Positions 17,565-35,690 of a stretch of DNA of 39,510 nucleotides are shown one piece after another. Both the position numbers and the translations under genes were made by a program. The stretch is from a virus (Duplodnaviria > Caudoviricetes), in the IMG/VR virus record IMGVR_UViG_3300032266_001227, positions 1 to 39,510 of that record, one strand, 5' to 3'. The notes under the pieces are model-generated. The model ran no database searches and was not told the origin of the DNA. It saw only the letters and a list, made by a program, of their open reading frames with translations. How positions within the stretch are numbered: position 1 is the first letter of the stretch; the number at the start of each line of letters is the position of its first letter.

Positions 17565-19250
17565 TCACGGCGCACCGAACGGGTCGGGATCACCAGGCTG
17601 CCAGTCCCCGCCATCGCCGTTCGGCCAGTCGCTGGCCGCCGCCGCATCCGCCAGATCACCATCCTTGCGCAGCCGGATCCCCGCGCGCGCCTTCTTGCCG
17701 CTCGGCAGCCGCACCACATAGATCTGCGCATCGCCCAGCGCCCGGCCGAACGTCGTCTGCGTCATGATGCGGTCTTCCTTGTCCCCGCGATCGAGGCAGA
17801 ACTGCCGGAACGCCTGGTAGAGCGTCGTCGCCTCGGTCCGCGCAGCGGGATCGGTCACGTCGCAGCATTGCTCCATGAACTCGCCCAGCGCGCTGGAGAC
17901 TTCCCAGAAGCTGTCCGTCGCCGCGGCCGAGGCGGCAGGCTGCGGGATCACCCGCTCGCCCAGCCAGTCGATCGCGCCGGCGATCATCCAGTTGAGGATG
18001 CCGGAAAGCTCGCCCGTCAGCCGTTTCTTGACGACGTCCACCGGCTCGTCTTCCACGCCCGGCGTCACGCCGTACTGGATCACCCAGGGATAGAGCTTGA
18101 AGCGCCGGCGAAACCCTCGATCGTCGCTTGGCGCCTTGGGCAGGTGATTGCATTCCACGATCAGCTGCCAGTGCGGCACAAAGCTCAGCTCGGTGGTCGC
18201 ATGCGCCCCGCGCGCGATCATCTCGCTGCCCGTGGCCTGCTTGATGCGCTGGCCGTCCCATGTGCTGCCCTTCTTGGGCTCGTCGGCCACCACAAGGCGG
18301 ATATCGCCCGCCAGACGCACAATATCGCTCTGGTGGCTGGCCGAGGCCTGCGATGGCCCCTCGAGGAACGTCTTGGGGTCCGCGCGCCGCGCATAGGCGC
18401 CGTGCAGTCGGCACATCACATCGTTGGTGACGCTCTTGCCGTCCTGCCCCTTGCCCTGAAAGATGTAGAACGCCTGGTCAGAGATCAGCGCCGTCAGCGT
18501 CATGCCATAGATCCGCTGCAGGGCCGTGCGCTGCACGGGATCGCGGTGCAGCTCGGCCATGCGCGCTTCCCACGCCGGCGCCGTCGCCGCGGCATCGTAG
18601 GCGACGCTCGCCACCTGCATGAAGCGATCAGACGCGCGGTGCCCCGGCTCGAACCGAACGCTCCACCGCTTGCGCGCCTTGCCCCCTTCAGGCTGGGTGG
18701 TTGCGGAGCGAAGCGAAGCAGAACCCTCTTGTTCTTCCTCAACGAACCGAATCGTACCGTTCGAACAGTGGTAAGCCAGCGGATCTGCGTCGAAGTCGCG
18801 CGACCACGCCTGCGTGATGAAGGGCGCTTCATCACCCTCACCGTCGCGCAGGCCCTTGAACTGCCCCAGCATCGCGCTGCACTTGGCCTGATCGCCAGAC
18901 TTGATGCCAAAGGCCCACAGCTGCACCACGCGCTCGCTCGCCATGTCAGCGGTAAACTTGCGGCCATAGACCGCCGCCAGCTCGTCAGGATCGGCCTCCC
19001 GCAGCGCAGCTGCTTCCTCGGCAATCCCCATCGCCGCCTTCTGGGCATAGGCCAACGCCCGCGCCGGCCCTTCATCGGTCGACCAGCGCACGCCGTCGAA
19101 CGCGATCCACGCACCCTTGCCGCCCTGCGCATCGGCCAGCCACAGCAGCCGCGGCCCCGATTCCTCGCGCGCCGCCTCCCATACGCGCCGGGCATTCCCG
19201 AGATCGTTCATCGGCAGCTTGCTACGCTCCAGGGGCGTCAAACGCTTCAA
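17565..19250 (-). CDS. P4-family / D5-like SF3 helicase (no primase domain)
   Basis: NDLGNARR (D5_N), Walker A GKGQDGKS, Walker B VVADE, CNHLP...DDRGFRRR, ELSGILNW, C-terminal winged helix. Confidence 0.92.
   Translation of the reverse strand: MKRLTPLERSKLPMNDLGNARRVWEAAREESGPRLLWLADAQGGKGAWIAFDGVRWSTDEGPARALAYAQKAAMGIAEEAAALREADPDELAAVYGRKFTADMASERVVQLWAFGIKSGDQAKCSAMLGQFKGLRDGEGDEAPFITQAWSRDFDADPLAYHCSNGTIRFVEEEQEGSASLRSATTQPEGGKARKRWSVRFEPGHRASDRFMQVASVAYDAAATAPAWEARMAELHRDPVQRTALQRIYGMTLTALISDQAFYIFQGKGQDGKSVTNDVMCRLHGAYARRADPKTFLEGPSQASASHQSDIVRLAGDIRLVVADEPKKGSTWDGQRIKQATGSEMIARGAHATTELSFVPHWQLIVECNHLPKAPSDDRGFRRRFKLYPWVIQYGVTPGVEDEPVDVVKKRLTGELSGILNWMIAGAIDWLGERVIPQPAASAAATDSFWEVSSALGEFMEQCCDVTDPAARTEATTLYQAFRQFCLDRGDKEDRIMTQTTFGRALGDAQIYVVRLPSGKKARAGIRLRKDGDLADAAAASDWPNGDGGDWQPGDPDPFGAP
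18699..18725 (+). repeat. 27-bp intragenic element, copy 1 (in helicase)
   Basis: GGTTGCGGAGCGAAGCGAAGCAGAACC, two differences from the other copies; encodes GSASLRSAT. Confidence 0.92.
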
Positions 19251-21013
19251 ACCTCGAGCCCCCGCGCATCGATCAGAGCATGCATCGCGGCCTTGCGCCT
19301 GGCGCCTGTGCCAGTGCTCAGCCGCCGCGCGGCGACGTCGACCACCTGCGGCAGCATCGCCTCATTCAGCGGCCCGCGGATGCCCAGCGTGCGGCGATAG
19401 AGCACGCGGTTCATTTCCAGTTCCTCGCGCGCTTCGGGCCCGTTCTTAAGGTCGCTCTCGATCTCGAGCACAGTGGCGGTGATCGCCTTTTTCGAAAATC
19501 CCATCAGGTCGGCCAGCGCCATCACTTCCTTGATATCCTCGGTGATTCCCCGCCGCTCCTCGCGCAGGCGCAGGATCCGCTTGACCATCGCGATCAGCTT
19601 GGCCGCGCTGTCGCTCTCGCTTTCCGGAAAGACGTAATCGCCATCGGCCGCACGCATGACGGCATGCAGCGGCTCGGCCGAGGCGAGCACCGGCGCGGCC
19701 GAGATCTCTTTCTCGAACCGCGATCGCCACACCGCGACATACTGAAGCCGCGTCTCGTCATCGCCGATCGTGCCGGCCAGCTCCACCAGGTCCGCCCAGA
19801 TCGCCGCCGTGCCTTCGGGCGAGCAGTCCCCGCCATGGTCCGCCACCACGCTATCGAACAGAAACCGATCGGCGCCCACCGCCTCGATCAACAGCGCCCC
19901 GATCGCCCGCGCACCCATGCCGCTCGCATCATTGCCCAGCAGATCGTCAGGATCCTTGCCCTCGGGCAGCAGCGCCACGGCCAGCGCCTTGCCGGGCCCG
20001 AAGTGCGGCAGCCCCGTCCGGCACGCGCGCAGCGCCGCCTTCCGCCCTGCAGGGTCGCCATCGAACAGCAGCACCGGACGGTGGTGCAGCCGCCAGCACC
20101 GCTCCAGCTGCGCTTCGGTCAGCGCCGTGCCCATCGGCGCCACCGTGGCCGCAAAGCCCGCGCGCGCCATGGCGATCACGTCGAAGTAGCCTTCCACCAC
20201 CGTCAGCCGGTTCTCGGCGCTTGGGCGCGATGCCGGTGCCGCCCGGTGCAGGTTGAACAGCGTGCGCCCCTTGTCGAACAGCGGCGTCTCGGCGGTGTTG
20301 ATGAACTTGGGCCGATCATGCCCGGTGCCCGCGGTTGCGGAGCGCAGCGAAGCAGAGCCACCGCCAGACTCCCCCCAGATGCGCCCGCCGAAGCCGATCA
20401 GCCGCCCGCGCTGGTCATGAATCGGGATGGTGATCCGATCGTGGAACACTTCGCGAAAGCTGCCATCATCCCGCCGCGCCAGCAGTCCTGCGGCAAGGCC
20501 CAGCTTGGCCGAGATCCCGCGCCCCTTCAGGCTGCCTTCCCGCCCGCGCGCATAGCCCAGGCCGAACGCCGCGATCTCCTCCGGGCCCAGCCCGCGCGCG
20601 CTCAGGTATTCCATCGCCGCGCCGGTCTCACCCAGCTGGTGGACGTAGATCCCCTGCGCCAGCTCAAGCGCCTCGCGCACCGTCTCGGCCTCGGCCGCAC
20701 GCGCCTGCGCTTCGGGCGAAGGCGCCGGCATTTCCAAGCCCGCCGCCGCCGCCAGCTCGCGCACCGCCTCCATGAACGGCAGGCCGGCATGATCGGTCAG
20801 CCAGCGAAACGCATCGCCGTGCCACCCGCAGCCGAAGCAATGGCCGAAGCCCTTCTCGTCGTTGATCGTGAAGCTCGGCGTCTTTTCGTTGTGGAACGGG
20901 CAGCACGCCTTGAACTCGCGCCCGGCCTTGGTCACCTTCACGCTGCGCCCGATCAACGCCGAAAGCGTGGTCCGCGCGCGGATCTCGTCGAGAAAGGCGG
21001 TAGGGAGCGCCAT
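19247..21013 (-). CDS. dnaG: DnaG-type DNA primase with C-terminal GapR/DUF2312-like domain
   Basis: CHC2 finger CPFHNEKTPSF...CFGC, Toprim VVEGYFDV and FDGDPAG, GKDPDD; C-terminal KRILRLREERRGITEDIKEV...GFSKK...LYRRTLG. Confidence 0.93.
   Translation of the reverse strand: MALPTAFLDEIRARTTLSALIGRSVKVTKAGREFKACCPFHNEKTPSFTINDEKGFGHCFGCGWHGDAFRWLTDHAGLPFMEAVRELAAAAGLEMPAPSPEAQARAAEAETVREALELAQGIYVHQLGETGAAMEYLSARGLGPEEIAAFGLGYARGREGSLKGRGISAKLGLAAGLLARRDDGSFREVFHDRITIPIHDQRGRLIGFGGRIWGESGGGSASLRSATAGTGHDRPKFINTAETPLFDKGRTLFNLHRAAPASRPSAENRLTVVEGYFDVIAMARAGFAATVAPMGTALTEAQLERCWRLHHRPVLLFDGDPAGRKAALRACRTGLPHFGPGKALAVALLPEGKDPDDLLGNDASGMGARAIGALLIEAVGADRFLFDSVVADHGGDCSPEGTAAIWADLVELAGTIGDDETRLQYVAVWRSRFEKEISAAPVLASAEPLHAVMRAADGDYVFPESESDSAAKLIAMVKRILRLREERRGITEDIKEVMALADLMGFSKKAITATVLEIESDLKNGPEAREELEMNRVLYRRTLGIRGPLNEAMLPQVVDVAARRLSTGTGARRKAAMHALIDARGLEV
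20333..20359 (+). repeat. 27-bp intragenic element, copy 2 (in primase)
   Basis: GGTTGCGGAGCGCAGCGAAGCAGAGCC; encodes GSASLRSAT. Confidence 0.95.
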
Positions 21014-21240
21014 CAGTCGTCCGCCTCGGGCAACAGACACTCTGCCGGCACAAAGATCAGGTTGCCTGTTGCATCATAGCGGAACACCGCCTGCATGTCG
21101 GGCTGCGATGAAATATCCACGCCCAACACAACCGGATGCAGCACCGCCTGCCGCAGCAACATCGCGTTGGCCCGCCGCGTGCCCCGTCGGCCTCGCCGCT
21201 CGGCTGCGCGACGGCGCCGCGCCTGATCCTTCCAGCTCAC
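21013..21240 (-). CDS. Hypothetical protein
   Basis: GTG overlaps the upstream stop (VSWKDQARR); its stop overlaps the primase ATG. Confidence 0.55.
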   Translation of the reverse strand: MSWKDQARRRRAAERRGRRGTRRANAMLLRQAVLHPVVLGVDISSQPDMQAVFRYDATGNLIFVPAECLLPEADD

Positions 21241-21494
21241 TGTTCCCAGTTCCCACCGATGCAGCACGCCACGTCCTCGATGCTGGTCACCAGCCCGTCG
21301 AAGTCTTCCTCGGCCGTCAGCACGTCGGCCATCGCGATCACGTCGCGCAGCGGCACGCCATGCTCGTCAGACAGATGCTTCAGCCACTCGAACCGGCTCT
21401 CGCAGCCCTGTTCGCGGTAGATCGCGAGGTCGATCGAGCGCTCCCCATCGATCCGCGCGATCAGCCGCTCGGTCGGGATCAGATCACCCATCAT
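21237..21494 (-). CDS. Hypothetical phage protein
   Basis: 85 aa, acidic, EDFDGLVTSIED; translationally coupled. Confidence 0.7.
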   Translation of the reverse strand: MMGDLIPTERLIARIDGERSIDLAIYREQGCESRFEWLKHLSDEHGVPLRDVIAMADVLTAEEDFDGLVTSIEDVACCIGGNWEQ

Positions 21495-21682
21495 TCGGGG
21501 GCCTCATTCAGCAGGTCGCGGATTTCGCCGAGCTTGCGCTCCGCTCGCCGCACGTCGCAGCGCGGGCCTTGCGTTGAAGCGTCCACCGCAATCTTCGCCA
21601 GCGCGAGCACCTCGCGCGCCGTCGTATGGACCCGAAACCGCGGCAGAGCGGTGGGGCCAATATCCTGAAACGCCTCTGACAT
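21491..21682 (-). CDS. Hypothetical protein
   Basis: 63 aa in the operon, stop overlaps the next ATG. Confidence 0.6.
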   Translation of the reverse strand: MSEAFQDIGPTALPRFRVHTTAREVLALAKIAVDASTQGPRCDVRRAERKLGEIRDLLNEAPE

Positions 21683-21694
21683 TTGCCGGTCTCC

Positions 21695-22948
21695 CTAGAC
21701 CCGTATCGGCATCAACACCTGCACAAGCCGGGCTTCGTCTTCCCCATTCACGCCCTCGATGCGCACCGGCCCATCGGCGGTGCTCAGCATCAGCCGCACG
21801 TCGTCGCTGGCCACCGCGCCCAGCGCATCGCGGAAATATCGACCATCGAACCCCCAGGTGATCGCCGGCCCGCCATAGACGCAGGGCACGTCCTCGCAGG
21901 CCTCGCCCAGCTCGATCGACGTGGCCGAAAGCGTCAGCCGGTCTTCATCCGCCTCGATCTTCACCGCCCGGCTCTTGCCATCAGCGAGCACCGCCACGCG
22001 CCGCAGCGCGCCGAGCAGCGCTTCGCGGTTCACCGTCAGCCGGTTCGGCGGCGCATCCGGAATCACCCGCGTGTAATCCGGGAACGTGCCGTCGATCGCC
22101 TTGGCTTGGATCACCAGCGTTGCCCCAAAATCATTGGCGTCGGGCATCGGCAAGGTAAACAGCAGCAGCTTGCCCTCCGACCCCATGCTCACGCCCACGT
22201 CGCCATCTTCGGGCACGCGCCCCAGTTCCTTGGCCAGAACAGCCACCACCTGGCGCGGCACGATCACGTTCGGCGCGCCGAGCGACCCCTCCGGCGCATC
22301 GATGGCGAGCCGCGCCAGGCGGTGCCCATCAGTGGCGGCAAGGCGCAGGTCCAGGGCGCCGCCTTCGCTGACGGGATGCAGATAGATGCCATTCAGATAG
22401 TAGCGCGTTTCCTCGCTGCTGATCGCGTGGTCGATGGCCGCAAAGGCATCGGCGAGCGCGGTCGCCTTCATGTTGAATTCGGTCGGCCAGTCCGCCGGCG
22501 CCGCCATCGGAAACTCCGCGCTGGGCAGGCCCTTCAAGGTCCACCGGCTGCGCCCCGCGGTCACCTTCACCGGTCCGCCCACGGTAGCGCTGGCCTCCTC
22601 CATAGCCTCGATCGTCACCATCGCATCGGCATCGACTTCGCCCAGAATGCCGAGCAGCGGTTTCGCCGGCACGCAGACAGCAAAAGCCCGGATCGAGCCG
22701 CGCCAATCTTCGGAGTTCGGCTCCCGATCATCCGTCGCCAGATCGCGCGTCGCCCAGATATCGAGGTTCGTCGCGGCCAGAGTCAGCACACCGTCGCCCG
22801 CCTGCACCAGAACCATGCTGCAGATCGGGATGGTGTTCTTCGCAGCTACGACTTGCGCGATATCGCCCAGCGCCGCTTTCAGGCTGCCCGCCCGGATGCG
22901 AAAGGCCGAGCGGCGCCGATCAGCCCCCTTCTTCGCCGCCGCGCTCAT
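21695..22948 (-). CDS. dnaN: DNA polymerase III beta sliding clamp
   Basis: KNTIPI, ATNLD, AISSEETRYYLNGIYLH, ATDGHRLA, IDGTFPDYTRVIP, C-terminal VLMPIRV. Confidence 0.95.
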   Translation of the reverse strand: MSAAAKKGADRRRSAFRIRAGSLKAALGDIAQVVAAKNTIPICSMVLVQAGDGVLTLAATNLDIWATRDLATDDREPNSEDWRGSIRAFAVCVPAKPLLGILGEVDADAMVTIEAMEEASATVGGPVKVTAGRSRWTLKGLPSAEFPMAAPADWPTEFNMKATALADAFAAIDHAISSEETRYYLNGIYLHPVSEGGALDLRLAATDGHRLARLAIDAPEGSLGAPNVIVPRQVVAVLAKELGRVPEDGDVGVSMGSEGKLLLFTLPMPDANDFGATLVIQAKAIDGTFPDYTRVIPDAPPNRLTVNREALLGALRRVAVLADGKSRAVKIEADEDRLTLSATSIELGEACEDVPCVYGGPAITWGFDGRYFRDALGAVASDDVRLMLSTADGPVRIEGVNGEDEARLVQVLMPIRV

Positions 22949-23313
22949 GCCGCACCTTCAGCGGAATCGGCAAAGCCGCTCGTCTCCAGATGCCCGTTCG
23001 TATCGAGCGAAGTCGAGACACCCTGAACAAGCGCCGCCTCGCATTCGGCATCGCCGATATGCAGGCATTGCTCGATCATCTCGATCTCGATATCGATCTG
23101 CTGCACCGTGCGCGCTGCGCGATCGGCATCCTCTGGATAATTCTTCGCCACCATTTCGGCTGCCCGGCGACGCTTGCGCAGGAAGGCAACCACATCGGCT
23201 CTCTCGCTGGCAGCGGCACCGACCGCCAGCGCGACGGCGGCATCGCTTACGGCGGCGAGAAACTTCTCCATCGCCTTGGCCAGGATTTGAGTATCCATTG
23301 CTTGCTCGCTCAC
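22945..23313 (-). CDS. Hypothetical protein
   Basis: 122 aa helical; AAASERADVVAFL; coupled to both neighbours. Confidence 0.65.
   Translation of the reverse strand: MSEQAMDTQILAKAMEKFLAAVSDAAVALAVGAAASERADVVAFLRKRRRAAEMVAKNYPEDADRAARTVQQIDIEIEMIEQCLHIGDAECEAALVQGVSTSLDTNGHLETSGFADSAEGAA
22993..23021. repeat. REP-like palindromic element (single half copy) inside a CDS
   Basis: CCCGTTCGTATCGAGCGAAGTCGAGACAC with a TCGA-GCGAAG-TCGA hairpin; resembles repeats I recall from sphingomonad genomes; encodes VSTSLDTNG. Confidence 0.55.
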
Positions 23314-23888
23314 GCCGCGCGTCCTTTCATCTCAAGCCCCGGCAGCGGTGCGCTGCCCGGTTCGTCCGCCGTCCACCGGCCTGTTTCCACGATGCGCACG
23401 CGGCGAAAGCTGCGCCCGGCGCCGCTCAGCACCACTTCGATGCGGCCTTCCTCGGCCAGCGTCTTCACCCGGTATCGGGCCGCATCGGCATCCCGCAGGC
23501 CCGCCGCCTCGGCCAGCGCGGCGTTGCTCGGGCAGGGCAGGCCCAGGTTGGCCGCGCGCACCAGCGTCATGTAGATCTTGCCCGCCTCGGTCTCGCGCCA
23601 CTCGGCATCGGCGCTAACCCGGCTGCGGCCGCGTTCATCGGCCGCCGCGCGCAGGTTCGGCCGCGCCCGCTGGAAGCAATACTGAAACTGCCCGGGCGCC
23701 AGCTTGACCTGAAACGGCAGCGCCTCGCCGGTGCGGATCCATTCGTCGACCAGCAGCTTCACCGGATGGCGATGATCGATCGCAGGTCCCGTCGCATAGA
23801 TCGCCCGCGCCCCTGCCGAAGCGCCCGCAAACCACTCCTCAAGCTGCGCCTGGTCGACGTAGCTGGTCCCCGCAAACGCGCCCTTCAT
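23310..23888 (-). CDS. Winged-helix DNA-binding protein
   Basis: Start MKGAFAG; CPSNAALAEAAGL...ARYRVKTLAEEGRIEV...RRVRIVETGRWTA. Confidence 0.7.
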   Translation of the reverse strand: MKGAFAGTSYVDQAQLEEWFAGASAGARAIYATGPAIDHRHPVKLLVDEWIRTGEALPFQVKLAPGQFQYCFQRARPNLRAAADERGRSRVSADAEWRETEAGKIYMTLVRAANLGLPCPSNAALAEAAGLRDADAARYRVKTLAEEGRIEVVLSGAGRSFRRVRIVETGRWTADEPGSAPLPGLEMKGRAA

Positions 23889-24241
23889 GCGGCGTTCCTT
23901 AGTGGCTCTGCTTCGCTGCGCTCCGCAACCGCGAAATCCACCGGCATCAGCGAGGGGATCGGGTGGCGCTTCTCGACTTCCTTGCCATGAATATCCGCGC
24001 CAGGGGTGATCTTGACAAACATTGTCGACGGCCAACCCCGCCCTTGAATTTTCGGAGAACAGCCCTTCAAGATTAGCGCACGCTCGCCGCCCAGCCTCTT
24101 AACTGGGCGCCCCACCCCTTCGACAAAGTACATCCGCCCAAGCGTCAGTCTTTTTGAAACCTGACCCGGCCAGAATGGATGCGTGAGCCGCACACACAAC
24201 GCCAGATCGCCGACCGCCCAATCGTCCCGCCCCTCGCTCAC
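23885..24241 (-). CDS. Hypothetical protein
   Basis: DDWAVGDLALCV N-terminus; 118 aa; coupled to neighbours. Confidence 0.65.
   Translation of the reverse strand: MSEGRDDWAVGDLALCVRLTHPFWPGQVSKRLTLGRMYFVEGVGRPVKRLGGERALILKGCSPKIQGRGWPSTMFVKITPGADIHGKEVEKRHPIPSLMPVDFAVAERSEAEPLRNAA
23904..23930 (-). repeat. 27-bp intragenic element, copy 3 (inverted)
   Basis: GGCTCTGCTTCGCTGCGCTCCGCAACC is the exact reverse complement of copy 2; read as VAERSEAEP. Confidence 0.95.
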
Positions 24242-24711
24242 CGCTTTTCCTCCCCACGCAGCTTCAGCAGCGCGCCCCGCAGCCGCGCGCTCGCGCGATC
24301 GAGATCGTCTTGTTCGCGCAGCACCCGGTCGATTTCGGCATCGTCGAGCGCGCCATCTTCCAGCCCGCTGCGCATCGATGCCGAAACGTCGCCAAGCTCG
24401 TGCATCAGCGCCAGCACCATGCCCGGCAGCGTATCGGCATCGGCCAGCGTATCGATGTGCGGCACAAACAACCCGCCCAACTCGCGCGCCAGCGCGGCGG
24501 TGATCGGCGGCAGCTTGCCCTGCGCCACCGCCACTTCATCAAGCGCCAGCGCCAGATCGAGCGAAGGGAAGGCAGGGCTGGCCAGATTGTTCCAGTCCCC
24601 CGCCACGCTGCGCCGCCGGTCTGCCGTCGCCGCAGCGCCATCGATCCCGCCGCACAGCGCGATCGCGGCGCGCACGCCGCGCTTGATCCGCGCCAGCGCC
24701 GCCATCAGCAC
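24238..24711 (-). CDS. CII-like phage regulatory protein
   Basis: Follows cro; GGIDGAA, FPSLDLAL and ELGDV...LEDGALD..E motifs. Confidence 0.65.
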   Translation of the reverse strand: MLMAALARIKRGVRAAIALCGGIDGAAATADRRRSVAGDWNNLASPAFPSLDLALALDEVAVAQGKLPPITAALARELGGLFVPHIDTLADADTLPGMVLALMHELGDVSASMRSGLEDGALDDAEIDRVLREQDDLDRASARLRGALLKLRGEEKR

Positions 24712-25076
24712 AGCCCCCCCTCAGCGACGCCGGACAATTGCCCGTCTTTTCCGGTCGAACCGTGGCCTGCATCGGCGCTATCAGCAGCGCCATGAAGCGG
24801 AACCCACTCCACCCCCCGCGCCCGCGCCACGATCGGATTGAGCGTCGATGCGTCGATGGTGCCCTCGGCAAGTTCTTCGATCGCCATGGCCACTTCGGGC
24901 GAAACAGACTTGAGGCCGCGCTCGACCAGCGAAACGCTGCCCTTGGTTTGCAGCCCGATTCGCGCGCCGAATTCTTCCTGCGTCAGCCCGAGCCGATTGC
25001 GCAGCGCCACGATCGGCGGCACGATTGCGCTGTCAGATACGGGCGGTGAGCATGGAGTGTCTGTCTGCTGTGCCAT
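24705..25076 (-). CDS. cro: Cro-like XRE HTH regulator
   Basis: LRNRLGLTQEEFGARIGLQTKGSVSLVERG; divergent from the repressor. Confidence 0.85.
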   Translation of the reverse strand: MAQQTDTPCSPPVSDSAIVPPIVALRNRLGLTQEEFGARIGLQTKGSVSLVERGLKSVSPEVAMAIEELAEGTIDASTLNPIVARARGVEWVPLHGAADSADAGHGSTGKDGQLSGVAEGGLC

Positions 25077-25084
25077 GGCCCAAG

Positions 25085-25171
25085 AGTTTGCATATCGCAA
25101 ACTACTTGGCAAGCCCCCAAGTTTGCATGCAGGCTAACGCAGCTGCGGACAAAGTTTGCCATACTGCAAAC
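25085..25171. promoter_or_regulatory. OR-like operators between cro and cI
   Basis: AGTTTGC-ATATC-GCAAACT (25085-25103), half site AGTTTGC at 25120, AGTTTGC-CATACT-GCAAAC (25153-25171). Confidence 0.82.
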
Positions 25172-25501
25172 ATGGCCCACAGTCGTCCGAAGCAGAACGT
25201 CGCCTGGCACCTTGCCGCCTGGATGGATTCGCTCCGCGCGACGCAAGCCGACATGATGGAGCGCGCCGGGTGGTCAAAGACCACGGCATCGCTGCTTTAC
25301 AATGCCCGGCAGGATCTTTCCTCAAAGCTGATCAGAGAAGCGGCTTTCGCGCTTAACATCGAACCCTTCGAACTGTTCATGCTGCCCGATCAGGCGATGG
25401 CGCTTCGCCGCCTGCGTGATTATGCCCTGCGGATCGCTGCTGACAAAGGCCAGATCTGGGGCAATTTTCCACCGGATGAGGCTGCAGCAGCCACTGGCTG
25501 A
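25172..25501 (+). CDS. cI: CI-like repressor (XRE HTH, no S24 peptidase domain)
   Basis: LAAWMDSLRATQADMMERAGWSKTTASLLYNARQ...AFALNIEPFELF; divergent from cro; 109 aa. Confidence 0.78.
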   Translation: MAHSRPKQNVAWHLAAWMDSLRATQADMMERAGWSKTTASLLYNARQDLSSKLIREAAFALNIEPFELFMLPDQAMALRRLRDYALRIAADKGQIWGNFPPDEAAAATG

Positions 25502-26146
25502 TCATCGCCTCGGAATGGCGAGCAGCACCACAAACAGCACCACCACGATCAACAGCGCCGAACCCACGCAACCCATGCAGCTTTGAAAGCTGTTCGGTGG
25601 AGGCTTGGCATAAGGCCCCGCCTGCCACCCCGGCGGCCGCTGCCCCGGTATGAACAGTTTCGGCCCCGGCTGCACGCCAAATCCCGCCCAATCGATCAGC
25701 TTCTCGACCCACGTCAGTTCCTGCTCGCCCGGCGGTTCCGCACGAGCCGGCGCCCTGTGCTCGATGATCTGGCCCAGTGCAGCCGACGTCCGGCTCTCCG
25801 GCCGAGGTTTGTCAGGCACAGCGACGCCTGCACGCTCTGCCGCAGCCTCCTTGCCGGTCCATACATCGAGCAGGACGCCAAGGCTCGGCTTGCCCGGCCC
25901 GCCGCCGACAATCGCGCGGACCCGCGCCAGCACGTCCTCGCCTTCCTCGGCGATCAGGCGCTGCAGCCAGCTGTCCCGCGGTACATAGCCGACCGTGCGC
26001 CCCACCACATCGCGCGCCACAACGGCCATTGGGTCGAACGTATTGGACGGTTCATGCTCGAGCTCGATCGGATCGCCTTGCCGCAACCGCTTCACCGCCG
26101 GTTGATAGTTCGATTCGCCCACCAGCTCGATGCTGTACCGCCCCAT
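25502..26146 (-). CDS. HIRAN-domain protein with C-terminal transmembrane helix
   Basis: LVGESNYQ, LEHEPSNTFDPMAV and VGYVPR HIRAN motifs; ends ALLIVVVLFVVLLAIPRR. Confidence 0.82.
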   Translation of the reverse strand: MGRYSIELVGESNYQPAVKRLRQGDPIELEHEPSNTFDPMAVVARDVVGRTVGYVPRDSWLQRLIAEEGEDVLARVRAIVGGGPGKPSLGVLLDVWTGKEAAAERAGVAVPDKPRPESRTSAALGQIIEHRAPARAEPPGEQELTWVEKLIDWAGFGVQPGPKLFIPGQRPPGWQAGPYAKPPPNSFQSCMGCVGSALLIVVVLFVVLLAIPRR

Positions 26147-26273
26147 TTACTTGCCCCCTCGCAAAGCGGCGGCAAGATGCCGTCCGCATAGCGCCCTTGC
26201 AATGTTGGATTTCGCGCAGCAGCTTGCCGCACCGCAGGTCGATTCGCACGTCCGCAAACGTCCAATCCGGTCC

Positions 26274-26328
26274 AGTTTGCTCTATGCAAACTTAGCGATT
26301 GACATTCAGTTTGCGAATTGCAAACAAT
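26274..26328 (+). promoter_or_regulatory. PL/OL-like early promoter with two operators
   Basis: AGTTTGC-TCTAT-GCAAACT (26274-26292), TTGACA (26299-26304), AGTTTGC-GAATT-GCAAAC (26308-26325). Confidence 0.82.
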
Positions 26329-26355
26329 GGCCCCCGTTCAACACGGGAGGCCCAA

Positions 26356-26595
26356 GTGCTCAAAGTCTCTGCAGCGTTCCCCAACCCCGGCGCCACCGCT
26401 TACGTCTCGCCCCACGGTGAGGCCGTCCGCATCATCCAGGCGAACGCCGATGGCAGCTACATCGTCGCCCGCCAGCGCCACCCCGCCATGTACGGCAGCG
26501 CCAGCGACACCTACCGCGCCGAGCCCGATGCCATCCACGCGACCGAGGAAGCCGCGATCGGCCTGAAGCCCCGCCGCAAGCGGAGGGCCGCGTGA
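26356..26595 (+). CDS. Hypothetical early protein
   Basis: GGAGG then GTG; first gene after PL; stop overlaps the next start. Confidence 0.7.
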   Translation: MLKVSAAFPNPGATAYVSPHGEAVRIIQANADGSYIVARQRHPAMYGSASDTYRAEPDAIHATEEAAIGLKPRRKRRAA

Positions 26596-26969
26596 TGGAC
26601 GATCTGCGCGAGAGCATTCGGATCGAACTGATCAATAGCCCTGAGACTGCAGACTTCATGGCAGCAGTTCCGCTCGAGGCCGCGCATCAGCGTGAGCGCT
26701 GGGGCTCCGAACATGACGCTGGCAAGACGCCGCTCGATTGGTTCTGGCTGATTGGATATCTTGCTCAAAAAGCTGCCGATTCTGCCGCACGCGGCGACGT
26801 AGAGAAGGCAAAGCACCACTGCATCAGCACGGCTGCAGCCTTGGCGAATTGGCATGCCAGCCTTACCGGCACCAGTCAGTTTATGCGGCCGGGACTTTCC
26901 GCAGAAGTTCAAGCTGCAGCGTTGGGCGAAGGTCAACTTACTCGCGCCTTGAAGGGCGCCGCGAAGTGA
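26592..26969 (+). CDS. Hypothetical phage protein (possible MazG-like helical fold)
   Basis: EAAHQRERWG..HD..K...DWFWLIGYL..KA...AAALANW. Confidence 0.7.
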   Translation: MMDDLRESIRIELINSPETADFMAAVPLEAAHQRERWGSEHDAGKTPLDWFWLIGYLAQKAADSAARGDVEKAKHHCISTAAALANWHASLTGTSQFMRPGLSAEVQAAALGEGQLTRALKGAAK

Positions 26970-27409
26970 CCGTCCTCTCGCTCCCCCAGCTCGCCGCCGA
27001 GCAGTTCCGTCGCCGCCAGACCAAGGCCCGCGCCGTCGTCGCATCCCGGCAGATGAGCACGGCGCAGGCCGAGGCGCACTTGCGGCCTTGGCTGGCGATC
27101 GCCTGCACCCTCGGCGCCGATCTGCCCGAGCTGGTCGGCCCCTTCGAAAGCCGGGAAGGCAACCGCTGGCTCGCCGCCGATGATGTGTGCCCGCGCAAGG
27201 TCTGGGCCCCGCTGCTCGCCGCCGCGCGTGACAACGCGATGGACCGCCTTCATCTCGATGAAAGCGAAGAGGCCATCGGCAACGCCGCCGCCCTGCTGCG
27301 CATCGCGCTCGCGCTGGCCTACGATCCGAACGGTCATCACGTCCCCTGCTACCGCGCCGATCTGCGCCAGGCGCGGGCTGCAGCCCAGACAAGAGAGCTG
27401 GCAGCATGA
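26966..27409 (+). CDS. Hypothetical protein
   Basis: GTGA overlap start (VTVLSLPQLAAEQ); coupled on both sides. Confidence 0.65.
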   Translation: MTVLSLPQLAAEQFRRRQTKARAVVASRQMSTAQAEAHLRPWLAIACTLGADLPELVGPFESREGNRWLAADDVCPRKVWAPLLAAARDNAMDRLHLDESEEAIGNAAALLRIALALAYDPNGHHVPCYRADLRQARAAAQTRELAA

Positions 27410-27492
27410 AGGCGTATATCTTCATCATCGGCTTTGCCGCGCTCTACATGATCGGCGTGCTGGCCGAAGCCATCGGGCGCACCCCGGCATGA
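27406..27492 (+). CDS. Small membrane peptide (28 aa)
   Basis: MKAYIFIIGFAALYMIGVLAEAIGRTPA; ATGA overlaps on both sides. Confidence 0.6.
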   Translation: MKAYIFIIGFAALYMIGVLAEAIGRTPA

Positions 27493-27611
27493 TCACGCCG
27501 GACCCCGAACCGCTGCCGCCGATCCTCACCTCGGTCTGGCTCCCGGTCACCGCCGCGCTCCTCGCGCTGCTTCTCGCGCTGCGCGTCTTCATCCAGTTCC
27601 AGGGAGGCTGA
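27489..27611 (+). CDS. Small membrane peptide (40 aa)
   Basis: MITPDPEPLPPILTSVWLPVTAALLALLLALRVFIQFQGG; ATGA overlap. Confidence 0.6.
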   Translation: MITPDPEPLPPILTSVWLPVTAALLALLLALRVFIQFQGG

Positions 27612-27614
27612 TCG

Positions 27615-27713
27615 ATGCAAACCATCCTGATCATCACCGCCGCCATCGCCTTCATCTGCGGCGCGTCCGTCGGCACCGTACTCGGCGCCTGGTGGGCGAC
27701 GCGCGGGGAATGA
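27615..27713 (+). CDS. Small membrane peptide (32 aa)
   Basis: GGAGG RBS; MQTILIITAAIAFICGASVGTVLGAWWATRGE; stop overlaps the next ATG. Confidence 0.6.
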   Translation: MQTILIITAAIAFICGASVGTVLGAWWATRGE

Positions 27714-28063
27714 TGGTCATGGCTGCCTTCAAGCCGCTGGCACCGATCAGCCCGCCCACCCCGCGCGTCACGCCACTACTCAAGAGCGATCCCGGCGCGA
27801 TCTCGCGGGCAGAGCGCGATGCGCTGCGCCGCCACATCGCCGATCTGCCGAACCCGGCCGTCTATGCCGAATGGCTGGCGCTGGCCGATCCGCATGCCGC
27901 GCAGCTGCTCGTGAATCCCACCACCTGCATCCGCGGCACCAGCGCTGCCGATCAGCGCGTCGCCGCGGCGCTTCGTCCCTATGGCCTGTGCGAAATGCGC
28001 GGCACCGGGATCACCGCCTTCGGCACCGCCGTCCGCCGCCGCCTTCTGGAGCTCGAGATATGA
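27710..28063 (+). CDS. Hypothetical protein
   Basis: Coupled starts and stops; C-terminal LRPYGLCE...ITAFGTAVRR resembles a winged-helix end. Confidence 0.65.
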   Translation: MMVMAAFKPLAPISPPTPRVTPLLKSDPGAISRAERDALRRHIADLPNPAVYAEWLALADPHAAQLLVNPTTCIRGTSAADQRVAAALRPYGLCEMRGTGITAFGTAVRRRLLELEI

Positions 28064-29127
28064 ACGCTTCTCCAAATCCCGCTCAATTCAAGCGCGGCGC
28101 GCAAGTTGGCGCGCCGCCCAGCCTCGAACAGATCCCCGTCGATCGCCTGCAGGTCGATGCCGCCTATCAGCGCGCCACAGATAGCGCCGGTTCGCGCAAG
28201 ATCATCAACGGCATGGTCAAGCGCTGGGATTGGTCGCTTTGCCAGCCTCTGGTGGTCGCAAGGCGGAGCGACGGCGCGCTTTACATTCTCGATGGTCAGC
28301 ACCGCCATGCGGGCGCGACCGAGCGCGGTGATATCCCCTTCCTGCCTTGCGTGGTCCTCTCCAGCCTCGGCCATGCCGATGAAGCGCGCACCTTCGTCGA
28401 ACTCAACACACGCCGGCAGAAGCTGACCCAGGCTCAGGTGTTCCACGGCATGCTCGCCGCCGGCGACGACAACGCGAGGCTCGTGCTGCAGCTGATCGAG
28501 GAAACCGGATGGCGCGTGCGCACCCACAGCAACACCGCCGCCTATGGCGCGGGCGATCTCGAATGCGCGCCGATGCTGGTCAAGGTGGTCGCGGCGAAGG
28601 GCGGCGACCCCGTGCGCTTTGCACTCACGGTTCTGCGCCTCGCCTATCCCGATACCGCCGTCCGCCAGACGTCAACGATGCTGAAGGCGCTGCTCGAGAT
28701 CTTCGACAACCCGGACCATGGGTTGACGGCGACCGGCCTTGCTTCGCTGATCGGATCGGTGCCGCCCGGCAAATGGGCAAGCCGCGCCGCCGTGCTGCAG
28801 GAACAGCGCCCGAACTGGTCACGCGTCACCGCGCTGGCAAAGGCGATCATGGCCGAAGCGACGGGTGAGGAAGCGGTCACGCCACCCCGCAGTGCGCCCG
28901 CGCCTATGCCGCCAGCACCCACCCCCAGCACCGGCGACCCCGCGATCGCCGTGCGCAGCAGGCCGCAGACGGCGCTTGCCCCGGCGCAGCGCCCGCGCGC
29001 CGCCTCCGCACCCTCGCCCTTCGGCACCACCGGCAAGGGCTGGTGCGAACAGTGCCAAAGCCTTCGCAGCCGGGAACACGCAGCCGCCTGCAGCAGTCGC
29101 TTCTGCAAGCTGCGTCCGCACACCTGA
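28060..29127 (+). CDS. ParB/Srx-fold protein (DUF6551-like) with C-terminal Cys cluster
   Basis: LQVDAAYQR, PLVVARR..G.LYILDGQHR, EARTFVELN; ends WCEQC...CSSRFC. Confidence 0.8.
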   Translation: MNASPNPAQFKRGAQVGAPPSLEQIPVDRLQVDAAYQRATDSAGSRKIINGMVKRWDWSLCQPLVVARRSDGALYILDGQHRHAGATERGDIPFLPCVVLSSLGHADEARTFVELNTRRQKLTQAQVFHGMLAAGDDNARLVLQLIEETGWRVRTHSNTAAYGAGDLECAPMLVKVVAAKGGDPVRFALTVLRLAYPDTAVRQTSTMLKALLEIFDNPDHGLTATGLASLIGSVPPGKWASRAAVLQEQRPNWSRVTALAKAIMAEATGEEAVTPPRSAPAPMPPAPTPSTGDPAIAVRSRPQTALAPAQRPRAASAPSPFGTTGKGWCEQCQSLRSREHAAACSSRFCKLRPHT

Positions 29128-29152
29128 TCCCCTTTCGAAAGGAACCGCCACC

Positions 29153-30592
29153 ATGGCCACCCAGCCCACATCGCTGCTCGACTTGCCTCTCAATTCCCTG
29201 ATCCTCTCCGCGCTCAACGTCCGCCACACCGAGCGCGATGCCGAGATCGCGAGCCTCGCCGAGGATATCGCCGCGCGCGGTCTCAAGCAGAACCTGGTCG
29301 TGGTGCCTGCGCATTTTTCGACGGGCGAGGCTCGCCCGGTTGCGGAGCGCAGCGAAGCAGAGCCAACCGGAAAAACCGACTGGCAGGACAAGTGGGAAGT
29401 GATCGCCGGCGGGCGTCGGCTGCAGGCCATGCAGCTGCTGCTCGCCGATGGCCGCTTGCCCGTCGATCATCTGGTCCCTTGCCTGATCGAAGACCGCGCC
29501 GACGCATCGGAAACCAGCCTTTCCGAAAACCTGCACAAGGTCAGCATGAACCCGGCTGACGAGTTCGCCGCCTTCCACGCGATCGTCGAGCAGCGCCGCG
29601 CCCAGGGCGAGCCGGAAGACGAAGCCATCGCCTACACCGCCCGCCGCTTCGGCGTGACGGTCAAGCACGTCCAGGGCCGTCTGCGCCTCGCCACCCTCGC
29701 GCCCGAGATCCTCGAAGCCTTGCGCGCGAACGAAATCACCCTCGATATCGCCAAGGCCTACGCCGGCACCAGCGATCACGACGTGCAGCGCACCGTGTTC
29801 AAGGCCGCGAAGAAATCGCCCTATGCGCTCACCGCCAAGGATATCCGCAATCGCCTGCGCGGCGTCACCTGCAGCCTCGATGATCCGCGCATGGAATTCG
29901 TCGGGCTCATTGCCTACCGCGCCGCCGGCGGACGCACCGAAACCGAGATGTTCATGGGCACCGAAGGCGAGGAACGCGTCGTCGACGTCGCGCTGCTCGA
30001 CAAGCTCGTGAAGGAAAAGGGCGAGGAACTGGCCGCCGCTGCCGCAAAGACCGATGGCTGGAAATCCGCGATCTTCACGTTCAGCTATGCCTATTCGGTC
30101 AAGAAGCCCGAAGGGTTTGCCATGAGCTGGGGTGGCGCCGATCAGCTTTCGAAGACCAAGCGCAAGCAGTGCATCGCAATCTACATCGCCCGCGGCGATG
30201 GAATCGAACTGCAGGCGCACCTTGAGCCGATGAAGCCCGCTGAGGAAGCACCGCGCCGCGACTGGGAAGCCGAACGCCGCGAGCATGAGCGCGAGATGCG
30301 TATCACGCGCAGCGCTGCCCGCCTCGCCGCGCGCGAGGTTCAGCCCGGACTTGCGGAGATGTTCATCGCCTCGCCCGAATCCCTGATCTGGCCAACCGGC
30401 TATGCCGCACCTGTCGAGCGCGACGACGACGAAACTTTTGTGCTGGTCACGCTGCAGATCCGTTTGCCCGTCTCCGAGCTGGAAGCGCGCCGCGAGGAAG
30501 CCACCCGCCTGATCGAAGCTGCCGAGGCCGTCGCCGACGAAGCCGACGAAGACGACGATCGCGAGTTCAGCGAAGAGGAAGCGGAGGCCTGA
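29153..30592 (+). CDS. ParB/RepB/Spo0J family protein
   Basis: AAGGA RBS; NVR, LAEDIAARGLKQNLVV, VIAGGRRLQA, SLSEN, MNPADE, HTH ARRFGVTVKHVQGRLRLA. Confidence 0.9.
   Translation: MATQPTSLLDLPLNSLILSALNVRHTERDAEIASLAEDIAARGLKQNLVVVPAHFSTGEARPVAERSEAEPTGKTDWQDKWEVIAGGRRLQAMQLLLADGRLPVDHLVPCLIEDRADASETSLSENLHKVSMNPADEFAAFHAIVEQRRAQGEPEDEAIAYTARRFGVTVKHVQGRLRLATLAPEILEALRANEITLDIAKAYAGTSDHDVQRTVFKAAKKSPYALTAKDIRNRLRGVTCSLDDPRMEFVGLIAYRAAGGRTETEMFMGTEGEERVVDVALLDKLVKEKGEELAAAAAKTDGWKSAIFTFSYAYSVKKPEGFAMSWGGADQLSKTKRKQCIAIYIARGDGIELQAHLEPMKPAEEAPRRDWEAERREHEREMRITRSAARLAAREVQPGLAEMFIASPESLIWPTGYAAPVERDDDETFVLVTLQIRLPVSELEARREEATRLIEAAEAVADEADEDDDREFSEEEAEA
29338..29364 (+). repeat. 27-bp intragenic element, copy 4 (in ParB)
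   Basis: Identical to copy 2; read as VAERSEAEP; preceded by the palindrome GGGCGAG-G-CTCGCCC. Confidence 0.95.
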
Positions 30593-30595
30593 GCG

Positions 30596-30970
30596 ATGGA
30601 GACTCGCTCGTGCGCTGTTTGCGGCTGCACCGATGCCGCCGCCTGCACCGATGATCTGCGCGGCGCATGCTGGTGGGTCAGCGAAAGGCTGTGCAGCCAC
30701 TGCGCCCAGCCCGATGCCCGGCGCGGCCTCGCCCTGGTCGCGGCCAGCCAGCTTTCCGAAGTCGTGGCAGAGCTGCTGCGCTTCGCCCGCGAAGGCGATC
30801 AGGAAGCCTTTGGCCCCTTCGCGCTCGATCCGGCCGAGAACACGGCCGACGCCCTGCGCGCCATCCTGCGCATCGAGTGCGCGACCATGCACTCGCCAGG
30901 CGCGCTCGATCCCGATGAGCACGGCCAGCTCATTTCCGCGCTTGCCCGCTTTTTGGATGGCTGGGCATGA
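30596..30970 (+). CDS. Zn-ribbon hypothetical protein
   Basis: CAVCGCTDAAAC...CWWV...LCSHC. Confidence 0.72.
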   Translation: METRSCAVCGCTDAAACTDDLRGACWWVSERLCSHCAQPDARRGLALVAASQLSEVVAELLRFAREGDQEAFGPFALDPAENTADALRAILRIECATMHSPGALDPDEHGQLISALARFLDGWA

Positions 30971-31584
30971 ACCTCGCCGCCGCCTTGCCCCGCCGCGATT
31001 ACCGGCTCGTGCTGATGGATCCGCCCTGGCGCACCGTGCTCTGGTCCGGTGCCCAGCGCACGCCCACGCAGAAGCGCGGCGATGATCACTATCCCACGAT
31101 GTCGGCCGAGCAGCTCGCCGCGATGGACGTCGCCGCGATCGCCGCGCCCGATGCGGTGCTGGCGATGTGGACGCTCGGCAGCCATCTGGATCAGGCGCTC
31201 GCCCTCGGCCGCGCGCTCGGCTTCGTCTACGTCACCGATCTGTTCTACTGGGTAAAGCAGCGCCAGCTGCGCCCCAACCAGACCGATCTGTTCACCGATG
31301 ATGTGGTCGCGCCGCCGATCGGCATGGGCAAGTACACTCGCAACCAGGTCGAGCCCTGCCTGCTGTTCAAGCGCGGCAAAGGCGTGAAGCGCGCCTCGGC
31401 CAGCGTCCGCCAGTTGATCGTCGCCCCCCGGCGCGAGCACAGCCGTAAGCCGGCCGAGCAATACGAACGCCTCGAGGCGCTGTTCGGCCCCGTGCCCCGC
31501 GCCGAGATCTTCAGCCGCACCACGCGCCCAGGTTGGGACGCCTGGGGCAACGAAACCGGCAAGTTCGAGGAAGCCGCCGCCTGA
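30967..31584 (+). CDS. MT-A70 family N6-adenine methyltransferase
   Basis: DPPW, HYPTM, LAMW, GMGKYTRNQVEPCL, REHSRKP, EIFSR and GWDAWGNE motifs. Confidence 0.93.
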   Translation: MNLAAALPRRDYRLVLMDPPWRTVLWSGAQRTPTQKRGDDHYPTMSAEQLAAMDVAAIAAPDAVLAMWTLGSHLDQALALGRALGFVYVTDLFYWVKQRQLRPNQTDLFTDDVVAPPIGMGKYTRNQVEPCLLFKRGKGVKRASASVRQLIVAPRREHSRKPAEQYERLEALFGPVPRAEIFSRTTRPGWDAWGNETGKFEEAAA

Positions 31585-35288: not shown

Positions 35289-35690
35289 TCAGAGGGAGTT
35301 GATGTGCTCAATCTCTGCCAGAATTTCTGGGTGTGGCGCAAACCACTCACCATGAAGCCGGTGGGCTGAAAATCTGCTGTGGTAGGCCTGCTCCATCAAA
35401 AGGTTCCCCGGCCGAGCCGCAAGGATCGAAAGCTTGATCGGACTTGCCACCTGCAGCATTTTTACCCGCGCCTGCACTGAGCCAGCGATGCCGATTTTGA
35501 TCGCTATCGAAGCGTCACCAATGAAGTAGACGTACCTCTGCGCGCCAGTCGTCTCAAGGGTTCGGTCAAAGGCCTGATCCCAAGATGAGACCGGCGCCAC
35601 TGGCTTCGGATCAACACGACAAATGCGCCCCGTATCCGCATCAAAATGGCCAAGAAGCTTTCCATTGGCATAGATGGGTGGATGGTTCAA
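35289..35690 (-). CDS. GIY-YIG-like nuclease, T5orf172/MUG113 family
   Basis: YVYFI, IKIG, R...LQ, E...H..F...RLHGEWF motifs. Confidence 0.85.
   Translation of the reverse strand: MNHPPIYANGKLLGHFDADTGRICRVDPKPVAPVSSWDQAFDRTLETTGAQRYVYFIGDASIAIKIGIAGSVQARVKMLQVASPIKLSILAARPGNLLMEQAYHSRFSAHRLHGEWFAPHPEILAEIEHINSL

What the first reader, a model, noticed from the sequence alone, without database searches (positions are those of the whole stretch)
18699..29364. 27-bp GNA-mini-hairpin element inserted in frame into four unrelated phage genes, in both orientations
Seen: GGTTGCGGAGCGCAGCGAAGCAGAGCC occurs at 18699 (2 mismatches), 20333, 23904 (inverted) and 29338; I found no intergenic copies. It is nine codons long and open on both strands, giving GSASLRSAT in the helicase and primase and VAERSEAEP in ParB and ORF 23885-24241. 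It has a 5-nt period (GCGGA GCGCA GCGAA GCAGA GCC), i.e. overlapping GC-GNA-GC units closed by GGTT/ARCC ends. Both changes in copy 1 keep this structure and are also synonymous. Known: d(GCGNAGC) forms exceptionally stable ssDNA mini-hairpins, and Rickettsia RPEs are the precedent for palindromic elements living inside proteins. In DnaG (GGRIW..PKF), D5 (NGTI..H) and ParB (QNLVV..WEVIAGGRR) it lies in what I recall as short variable loops. Inference: this is either a very small selfish coding-compatible mobile element, or a dispersed ssDNA signal (priming or ParB-loading site) placed in tolerant loops. Three of the four host genes encode DNA replication or partition proteins.
Basis: partly seen in the sequence, partly recalled or inferred. 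Interest (0 to 1): 0.85.

Follow-up and report, generated by a model that had tools for sequence, protein, structure and literature searches.

The report
Hairpin micro-insertions in phage replication proteins
A 27-base DNA motif, predicted to fold into a tiny hairpin, sits in frame in four genes of this phage; at the three sites that could be compared most relatives lack it, and it is likely a small mobile repeat that survives only in protein loops able to take extra residues, a new family of a known kind of selfish DNA.

Summary
The four copies are real and in frame. The window is a complete temperate phage of Novosphingobium-like hosts. In each of 120 listed primases, helicases and ParB proteins, only 3 carry the insert, and carriers are scattered across the trees. 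The net gain is 13 codons (primase, ParB) or 19 (helicase), not nine, with untidy edges and no target duplication. A related phage carries a copy where this one is empty. Other copies lie between genes, in a prophage sliding clamp and in host tamB. Their outer arms stay fixed while the inner stem-loop changes length, which supports a folded single-strand DNA structure. The same helicase loop in another prophage holds a different repeat that has 15-74 copies in four host genomes, so these loops are landing sites for repeats. No high-copy host and no mobilising enzyme were found. Best reading (0.6): a REP-like passenger moved in trans, filtered by protein tolerance and passed between prophages by recombination. 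A priming or ParB signal is less likely (0.15). In-gene REPs are known; this family and its phage bias were not found in print.

The parts
18699..18725 (+). Copy 1 (2 synonymous changes), antisense to the helicase gene; part of a loop 57 nt longer than in most relatives
   Evidence: replaced stretch 18655-18735 against a relative's contig, table 5c
20333..20359 (+). Copy 2, antisense to the DnaG gene; loop 39 nt longer than in the closest relatives; residues 219-227 fall in the only low-confidence stretch of the predicted catalytic domain
   Evidence: (20328-20372 replaced by 6 nt)
23904..23930 (-). Copy 3, sense, in the C-terminal tail of ORF 23885-24241, 16 nt before the start codon of the next gene; no empty allele available
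29338..29364 (+). Copy 4, sense, in the ParB-like gene; loop 39 nt longer than in the closest relative
17565..19250 (-). Host gene: P4/D5-family primase-helicase
19247..21013 (-). Host gene: DnaG-type primase (CHC2 zinc finger, DnaG_N, Toprim, GapR-like C-terminus)
23885..24241 (-). Host ORF of 118 aa, no family; taken as a gene from its overlapping start/stop coupling with both neighbours (inferred)
29153..30592 (+). Host gene: ParB-like protein
27257..27258 (+). Empty site: related phage G001 carries the element here in frame, net +39 nt

Best explanation
The 27-mer is the conserved core of a likely non-autonomous, REP-like micro-element, predicted to fold on single-stranded DNA, that is present in some alleles and absent from most, and is likely kept only where a protein loop or an intergenic gap tolerates it. 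Shown: patchy presence, empty alleles, polyphyly, loop location, only two of six frames used, fixed outer arms with an inner stem-loop of variable length. Predicted fold: stem TGC/GCA, a GGA/GAA internal loop closed by sheared G-A pairs, and a GC-GNA-GC mini-hairpin. Inferred: (1) it is copied in trans by a host single-strand nuclease/transposase that reads the hairpin, as HUH/Y1 enzymes do for REPs, which fits the lack of a target duplication; (2) insertions survive only if they keep the frame and give a polar, linker-like peptide; (3) filled loops then pass between prophage alleles, and are lost again, by homologous recombination; (4) the inserts are nearly neutral. The enzyme and the reservoir were not found.
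For: Carriers 3 of 120 primases, 3 of 120 helicases, 3 of 120 ParB proteins. Reciprocal filled site in G001. Three changes forced by well-supported branches in the helicase tree (25 rows) and the ParB tree (25 rows); the primase carrier P0028 lies outside the 100% clade that mixes two carriers and three empties. Copies between genes (L009, L010, L192; L259 and the window are empty there), in a prophage clamp and tandem in host tamB. Inner stem lengthened with pairing kept in G665. Six outer codons identical between primases that keep only 2 of 18 A/T-ending fourfold codons elsewhere, P about 4e-4 under neutral descent. A different repeat with 15, 28, 35 and 74 copies in four of five hosts sits in frame in the same helicase loop of the G608 prophage. 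In-gene REPs, many in DNA synthesis and repair genes, are described (PMC3733652).
Against: No reservoir: 1 of 401 family genomes at up to 3 mismatches (the one already known), 2 exact-core stretches in the whole GTDB scan, no excess over the reversed control in 376 Novosphingobium and 291 family genomes with gapped patterns. No Y1/HUH gene among the phage ORFs scanned; Y1 genes in only 2 of 5 carrier hosts, none flanked by the element. No GTAG or CGTC tag and no dimers. Boundaries are not clean even against a relative about 90% identical. Flanks inside the net insertion differ between copies, which a fixed-length transposon would not give. Covariation of a closing stem was not significant (p = 0.09).
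Confidence: 0.6

Rival explanations
1. A dispersed functional signal on single-stranded phage DNA (priming, SSB-excluding or ParB-loading hairpin) placed in tolerant loops and kept by selection on the DNA.
For: Third positions are conserved across diverged alleles; the fold is kept when the inner stem changes; GCGNAGC-type mini-hairpins occur at phage priming sites and bind SSB poorly (PMC13037366 passages); all four copies lie in the replication/early region.
Against: Relatives at 76-85% identity lack the copies at the matching sites, and three related prophage stretches have no copy within 7 mismatches (G555, G704) or only a loop variant (G608); mixed orientation; copies in host tamB and in an unrelated head module; an unrelated host repeat fills the same loops.
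Confidence: 0.15
2. No dedicated mobiliser: nuclease-resistant mini-hairpin fragments from other elements are captured at breaks by repair or template switching, then spread by gene conversion within and between prophages.
For: Untidy edges, variable flanks, no duplication; the first 21 nt cap a 21-bp hairpin inside an ISNCY element on sphingomonad plasmids; the core recurs in 31 metagenome stretches of GC 0.34-0.69; mini-hairpins resist nucleases.
Against: Ku was found in only 1 of 5 carrier hosts (genomes may be incomplete); the same 27-32 nt ends recur at seven or more unrelated sites, more regular than random capture would give; the flank letters were not traced to a donor.
Confidence: 0.17
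3. Selection acts on the peptide (a useful linker or binding tag), and the DNA likeness follows from recent duplication.
For: Only two of six frames are used, both polar; the variable base is a third position in both.
Against: Two different peptides from opposite strands; intergenic copies are as well conserved; synonymous positions are conserved.
Confidence: 0.05
4. Assembly artefact or adapter-like contamination.
For: The 32-nt inverted match between copies 2 and 3 breaks the source contigs.
Against: All copies keep the frame; variants occur in independent records; source contigs match without differences.
Confidence: 0.02

Closest known systems
Intragenic GTAG and CGTC REPs (Di Nocera et al. 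2013, PMC3733652; sections 5, 6, 15, first part of 17 and passages read; figures with the consensus sequences not held; 4 supplement files searched without a hit)
   Same: 20-40 bp imperfect palindromes; single units in frame in loops or linkers, many in DNA synthesis and repair genes; others just 3' of genes; GTAG-1/2 have unpaired dinucleotides before a variable stem-loop and a conserved 3-nt tail, like the fixed GGA...GAA arms here; CGTC REPs are common in alphaproteobacteria and lack a known transposase.
   Different: No GTAG or CGTC tag; 1-4 copies per genome, not tens to thousands; mostly in phages and prophages; no head-to-head dimers (one tandem pair in tamB); predicted sheared G-A internal loop.
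Rickettsia palindromic elements (RPE-1, RPE-4, RPE-6; known through PMC3733652 passages, otherwise recalled)
   Same: Palindromic insertions translated as extra segments of unrelated proteins, from either strand.
   Different: Much shorter than RPE-1 (length recalled, about 150 bp); found in phages of free-living bacteria; no high-copy genome found.
TnpA-REP (RAYT) / REPtron system (PMC8266576, passages read)
   Same: A strand-specific folded ssDNA hairpin with irregular pairs is the kind of substrate these HUH enzymes read; no target duplication expected.
   Different: The GTAG tetranucleotide those enzymes need is absent, and no Y1 gene was found next to the element.
d(GCGNAGC) mini-hairpins and GNA zipper motifs (PMC13037366 and PMC11014236, passages read)
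   Same: The central heptamer is the textbook mini-hairpin; the GGA/GAA loop matches the sheared G-A bracketed purine stack described for (GGA)2 satellites.
   Different: Those are structural motifs or single origin/promoter sites, not dispersed polymorphic insertions in genes.

Membership tests
REP (GTAG or CGTC superfamilies) | 20-40 bp imperfect palindrome | tested here: met
   27-32 nt, fold scan; energy model alone is neutral
REP (GTAG or CGTC superfamilies) | Terminal GTAG-like or CGTC-like tag | tested here: not met
   No such tag at either end in 12 aligned copies
REP (GTAG or CGTC superfamilies) | High copy number in a host chromosome, mostly intergenic | tested here: not met
   At most 2-3 pattern matches per genome, at control level, in the genomes searched; one genome per species, many incomplete
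REP (GTAG or CGTC superfamilies) | Dimers or clusters (REPIN/BIME) | tested here: not met
   Single copies; one tandem pair in tamB
REPtron / RAYT-mobilised REP | Y1 transposase gene flanked by the repeat | tested here: not met
   3 Y1 loci in 2 of 5 carrier hosts, none with the element; none in the phage
REPtron / RAYT-mobilised REP | Strand-specific cleavage of the folded repeat by the enzyme | not testable with these tools
   Needs an in vitro assay
RPE-like coding palindromic insertion | In-frame insertion with empty orthologous alleles | tested here: met
RPE-like coding palindromic insertion | Insert lies in a surface loop and leaves the fold intact | tested here: met
   Predicted for DnaG only: mean pLDDT 87, insert at pLDDT under 50 after strand 205-212; gap against 2au3
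RPE-like coding palindromic insertion | Decorated proteins are expressed | not testable with these tools
   Needs proteomics; frame bias is indirect support
MITE | Terminal inverted repeats and target-site duplication | tested here: not met
   Longest flank direct repeat 3-4 nt, the background mode
Single-strand initiation site (ssi/pas) | Conserved fixed position near an origin across relatives | tested here: not met
   Absent from close relatives, mixed orientation
Single-strand initiation site (ssi/pas) | Primes complementary-strand synthesis | not testable with these tools
   Needs a priming assay
Rfam RNA families | Match at gathering score | tested here: not met
   0 matches in the window and four loci

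The most novel reading that the evidence does not exclude
A phage-resident micro-transposon of about 30 bases, with no host reservoir, that folds into a sheared G-A zipper hairpin, makes new insertions in prophage replication genes and then spreads between alleles by a homing-like conversion (the same filled helicase loop, flanks included, sits in two separate clades); it would be among the smallest mobile units known and a steady source of new loops in phage replisome proteins.
Probability: 0.25. Interest if true: 0.8.

Novelty: new variant of a known kind. Interest (0 to 1): 0.5.

Why it matters
How REPs without a known transposase move, and why they favour DNA-metabolism genes, is open (PMC3733652). 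Here two unrelated repeats are caught in the same primase and helicase loops of one phage group, with filled and empty alleles side by side. That favours tolerant landing sites over the idea that such inserts were selected to change the enzyme, and it gives a small, tractable system (a 39-kb temperate phage, four copies, natural empty alleles) in which mobility and neutrality can be tested directly.

Tried and rejected
Peptide-degenerate and gapped viral scans gave 31, 28 and 38 stretches, nearly all chance or unrelated; only G001 and L192 were kept, and L325 and L094 were inspected and left out as doubtful. Most gapped hits in genomes were chance; G608, G665, G420, G002 and G003 were kept on anatomy and context. 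Target-site duplication: rejected. Closing-stem covariation: not significant. The phage's T5orf172/GIY-YIG-like ORF as mobiliser: no homologue in any locus held, including the whole G001 contig. End-joining capture: Ku in 1 of 5. Promoter or terminator role: none of the 4 promoter-like and 11 terminator-like sites overlaps a copy. Single-sequence AlphaFold failed (pLDDT 41). The one-clade test on the primase tree did not finish, and all trees are quick trees; 1 of 53 primase rows and 5 of 30 helicase rows were skipped because the loop pattern did not match. No RNA holder listed. Runs X3 and X4 gave nothing. Paper searches with no hit; listings only. Look-ups of earlier findings by sequence and by relatives were empty.

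Full report
OBSERVATION. The 27-mer occurs four times at the stated coordinates, with 0 matches in 100 shuffles and nothing closer than 9 mismatches elsewhere. A scan built on the fold alone recovers exactly these four (mean 0.03 in 30 controls). The window is a complete virus record with terminal repeats: HK97-type head, long-tail genes, integrase, and a replication block. Named homologues come mostly from Novosphingobium and other Sphingomonadales. The host genes are a P4/D5 primase-helicase, DnaG, a ParB-like protein and a 118-aa ORF without family. Contigs of the likely source run match without differences and break at the 32-nt match between copies 2 and 3; that run is not independent evidence.

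EMPTY ALLELES. Of 120 listed primases, 3 carry the insert (P0001, P0002, P0028); the loop pattern could be read in 90 of them, and the closest empties (P0003-P0005, 76-85% identical) are 13 residues shorter. Of 120 helicases, 3 carry it (P0121, P0126, P0132); the usual loop is 18-19 residues shorter. Of 120 ParB proteins, 3 carry it (P0241, P0243, P0244); the closest relative is 13 shorter, though this loop varies widely, 31-50 residues. Proteins that share a 40,428-bp contig length, taken as one phage (inferred), are filled in primase and ParB and empty in the helicase. Phage G001 has one copy, in frame, in a gene where this window is empty, net +39 nt. Contigs of run X2 give net differences of 57, 39 and 39 nt at the three sites, but as replacements, not clean insertions. 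There is no target duplication. Why three unrelated sites gained exactly 39 nt is unexplained.

HISTORY. With the loop removed, quick trees put the three helicase carriers in three well-supported clades, each beside empty alleles (25 rows, 3 changes forced), and the same for ParB (25 rows, 3 changes; one gain and two losses is possible). In the primase tree (52 rows) P0028 lies outside the 100% clade that holds two carriers and three empties; the formal test did not finish. P0121 and P0126 share the insert and its flanks at 72% protein identity yet fall in different clades, which points to lateral transfer of a filled loop (inference). The primase carriers have different flanks, which points to repeated insertion (inference).

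STRUCTURE OF THE ELEMENT. Base 13 is C, A or G in family copies. It is the middle of the GNA loop but also a third codon position in both frames used, so it does not by itself separate DNA from protein constraint. Better evidence: the arms stay while the inner part changes. The G665 prophage clamp gene has a 5-bp inner stem with a GAA loop, the G608 prophage primase a 3-bp stem with a 4-nt loop, and phage locus L192 a longer inner hairpin in the gap after the capsid gene, where the window is empty. The six outer codons are identical between the window and G608 primases, three of them A/T-ending, whereas 2 of 18 such codons are kept in the rest of the gene (P about 4e-4): the copies are recent or held at DNA level. 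The predicted fold rests on published chemistry of GCGNAGC mini-hairpins and GNA zippers (passages of PMC13037366 and PMC11014236), not on the energy model, which is neutral. A further closing stem is only suggestive (p = 0.09).

PROTEIN FILTER. All six frames are open, yet seven independent coding sites (helicase, primase, clamp; ParB, ORF 118, the G001 gene, tamB) use only two, both polar. By hand, any two frames taking all seven has a chance of about 0.007. Peptides of the other frames were sought in the 360 stored proteins and not found. In the alignment-based DnaG model (mean pLDDT 87) the insert is the only low-confidence stretch of the catalytic domain, and it is a gap against the solved primase 2au3. 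Helicase and ParB were not modelled.

DISTRIBUTION. It is not an abundant host repeat in what was searched: 1 of 401 family genomes, 2 exact-core stretches in the GTDB scan, each a single intergenic copy in a phage-like head module of a Novosphingobium MAG, control-level counts in 376 and 291 genomes with gapped patterns, and only the phage's own contigs in the source run. One chromosome has two tandem copies in the N-terminus of tamB. These collections hold one genome per species and may withhold near relatives, so an unsampled reservoir stays possible. The 19-21 nt core is a widespread building block: 31 metagenome stretches, only one of them this family, and the cap of a hairpin in an ISNCY element.

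THE LOOPS ARE LANDING SITES. In the G608 prophage the primase loop holds the variant and the helicase loop holds a different repeat, present in 1, 15, 28, 35 and 74 copies in the five hosts tested (I first recalled that motif from a peptide, the calls then showed it). This is the strongest argument for a passenger and against a signal needed at these places.

MECHANISM. Most likely (0.6) a non-autonomous REP-like hairpin copied in trans by a single-strand nuclease, filtered by frame and loop tolerance, and shuffled among prophages by recombination. The mover is inferred: no Y1 gene in the phage, none beside the element in five carrier hosts, and the phage's GIY-YIG-like ORF is missing from G001. 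Passive capture (0.17) and a functional ssDNA signal (0.15) remain.

COMPARISON AND NOVELTY. It works like the intragenic GTAG/CGTC REPs and RPEs of PMC3733652 but fails membership: no tag, low copy, no dimers. That paper's consensus figures were not available, so likeness to a listed family cannot be fully excluded. Searches that found no description: no papers; listings, none on this. Earlier notes of this scan describe similar in-frame hairpins in other genomes; they are unchecked and not counted as support, but they suggest the phenomenon is common. One of them prompted the comparison with GTAG-1 REPs. Verdict: real, a new variant of a known kind, interest 0.5.

Noticed in passing
L253 (G608 prophage), helicase gene near G608:C44:56002: A host repeat with 15 copies in that genome and 28-74 in three others sits in frame in the same helicase loop as copy 1; its peptides also appear in that loop or in the primase loop of P0021, P0043, P0047, P0139 and P0152.
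   Followed up: yes
L353:2635-2701 (NZ_CP017077.1), also L349, L164: A perfect 21-bp hairpin just after the stop of an ISNCY (rve) transposase is capped by the first 21 nt of the element; 3 plasmid records hold it.
   Followed up: partly
L100, L108, L109, L111, L114-L116, L118, L119, L121, L122 (CXWJ01 contigs): A multi-copy repeat with long terminal inverted repeats carries the same 19-nt core inside, sometimes in tandem.
   Followed up: no
L009, L010, L259, leader before the capsid gene: A well-conserved non-coding block of about 90 nt upstream of a podovirus-like capsid gene in three genomes; no Rfam match in L009.
   Followed up: no
window 19247-19650 (-): The phage DnaG ends in a GapR-like DNA-binding domain (PF10073).
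   Followed up: no
window 18683-18697: The left flank of copy 1 faintly resembles a decayed copy of the host repeat above; not tested.
   Followed up: no
window 35289-35690 (-), 30967-31584 (+), 25502-26146 (-): T5orf172/MUG113 GIY-YIG-like ORF next to the integrase, an MT-A70 methyltransferase and a HIRAN-domain ORF.
   Followed up: partly
window 20332-23931: Copies 2 and 3 form a 32-nt inverted repeat around 3.5 kb, so the segment could in principle invert; gene orientation fits the present assembly.
   Followed up: no
L006, L007, L008: Unrelated viral contigs with clusters of GNA-loop hairpins of the same inner type.
   Followed up: no
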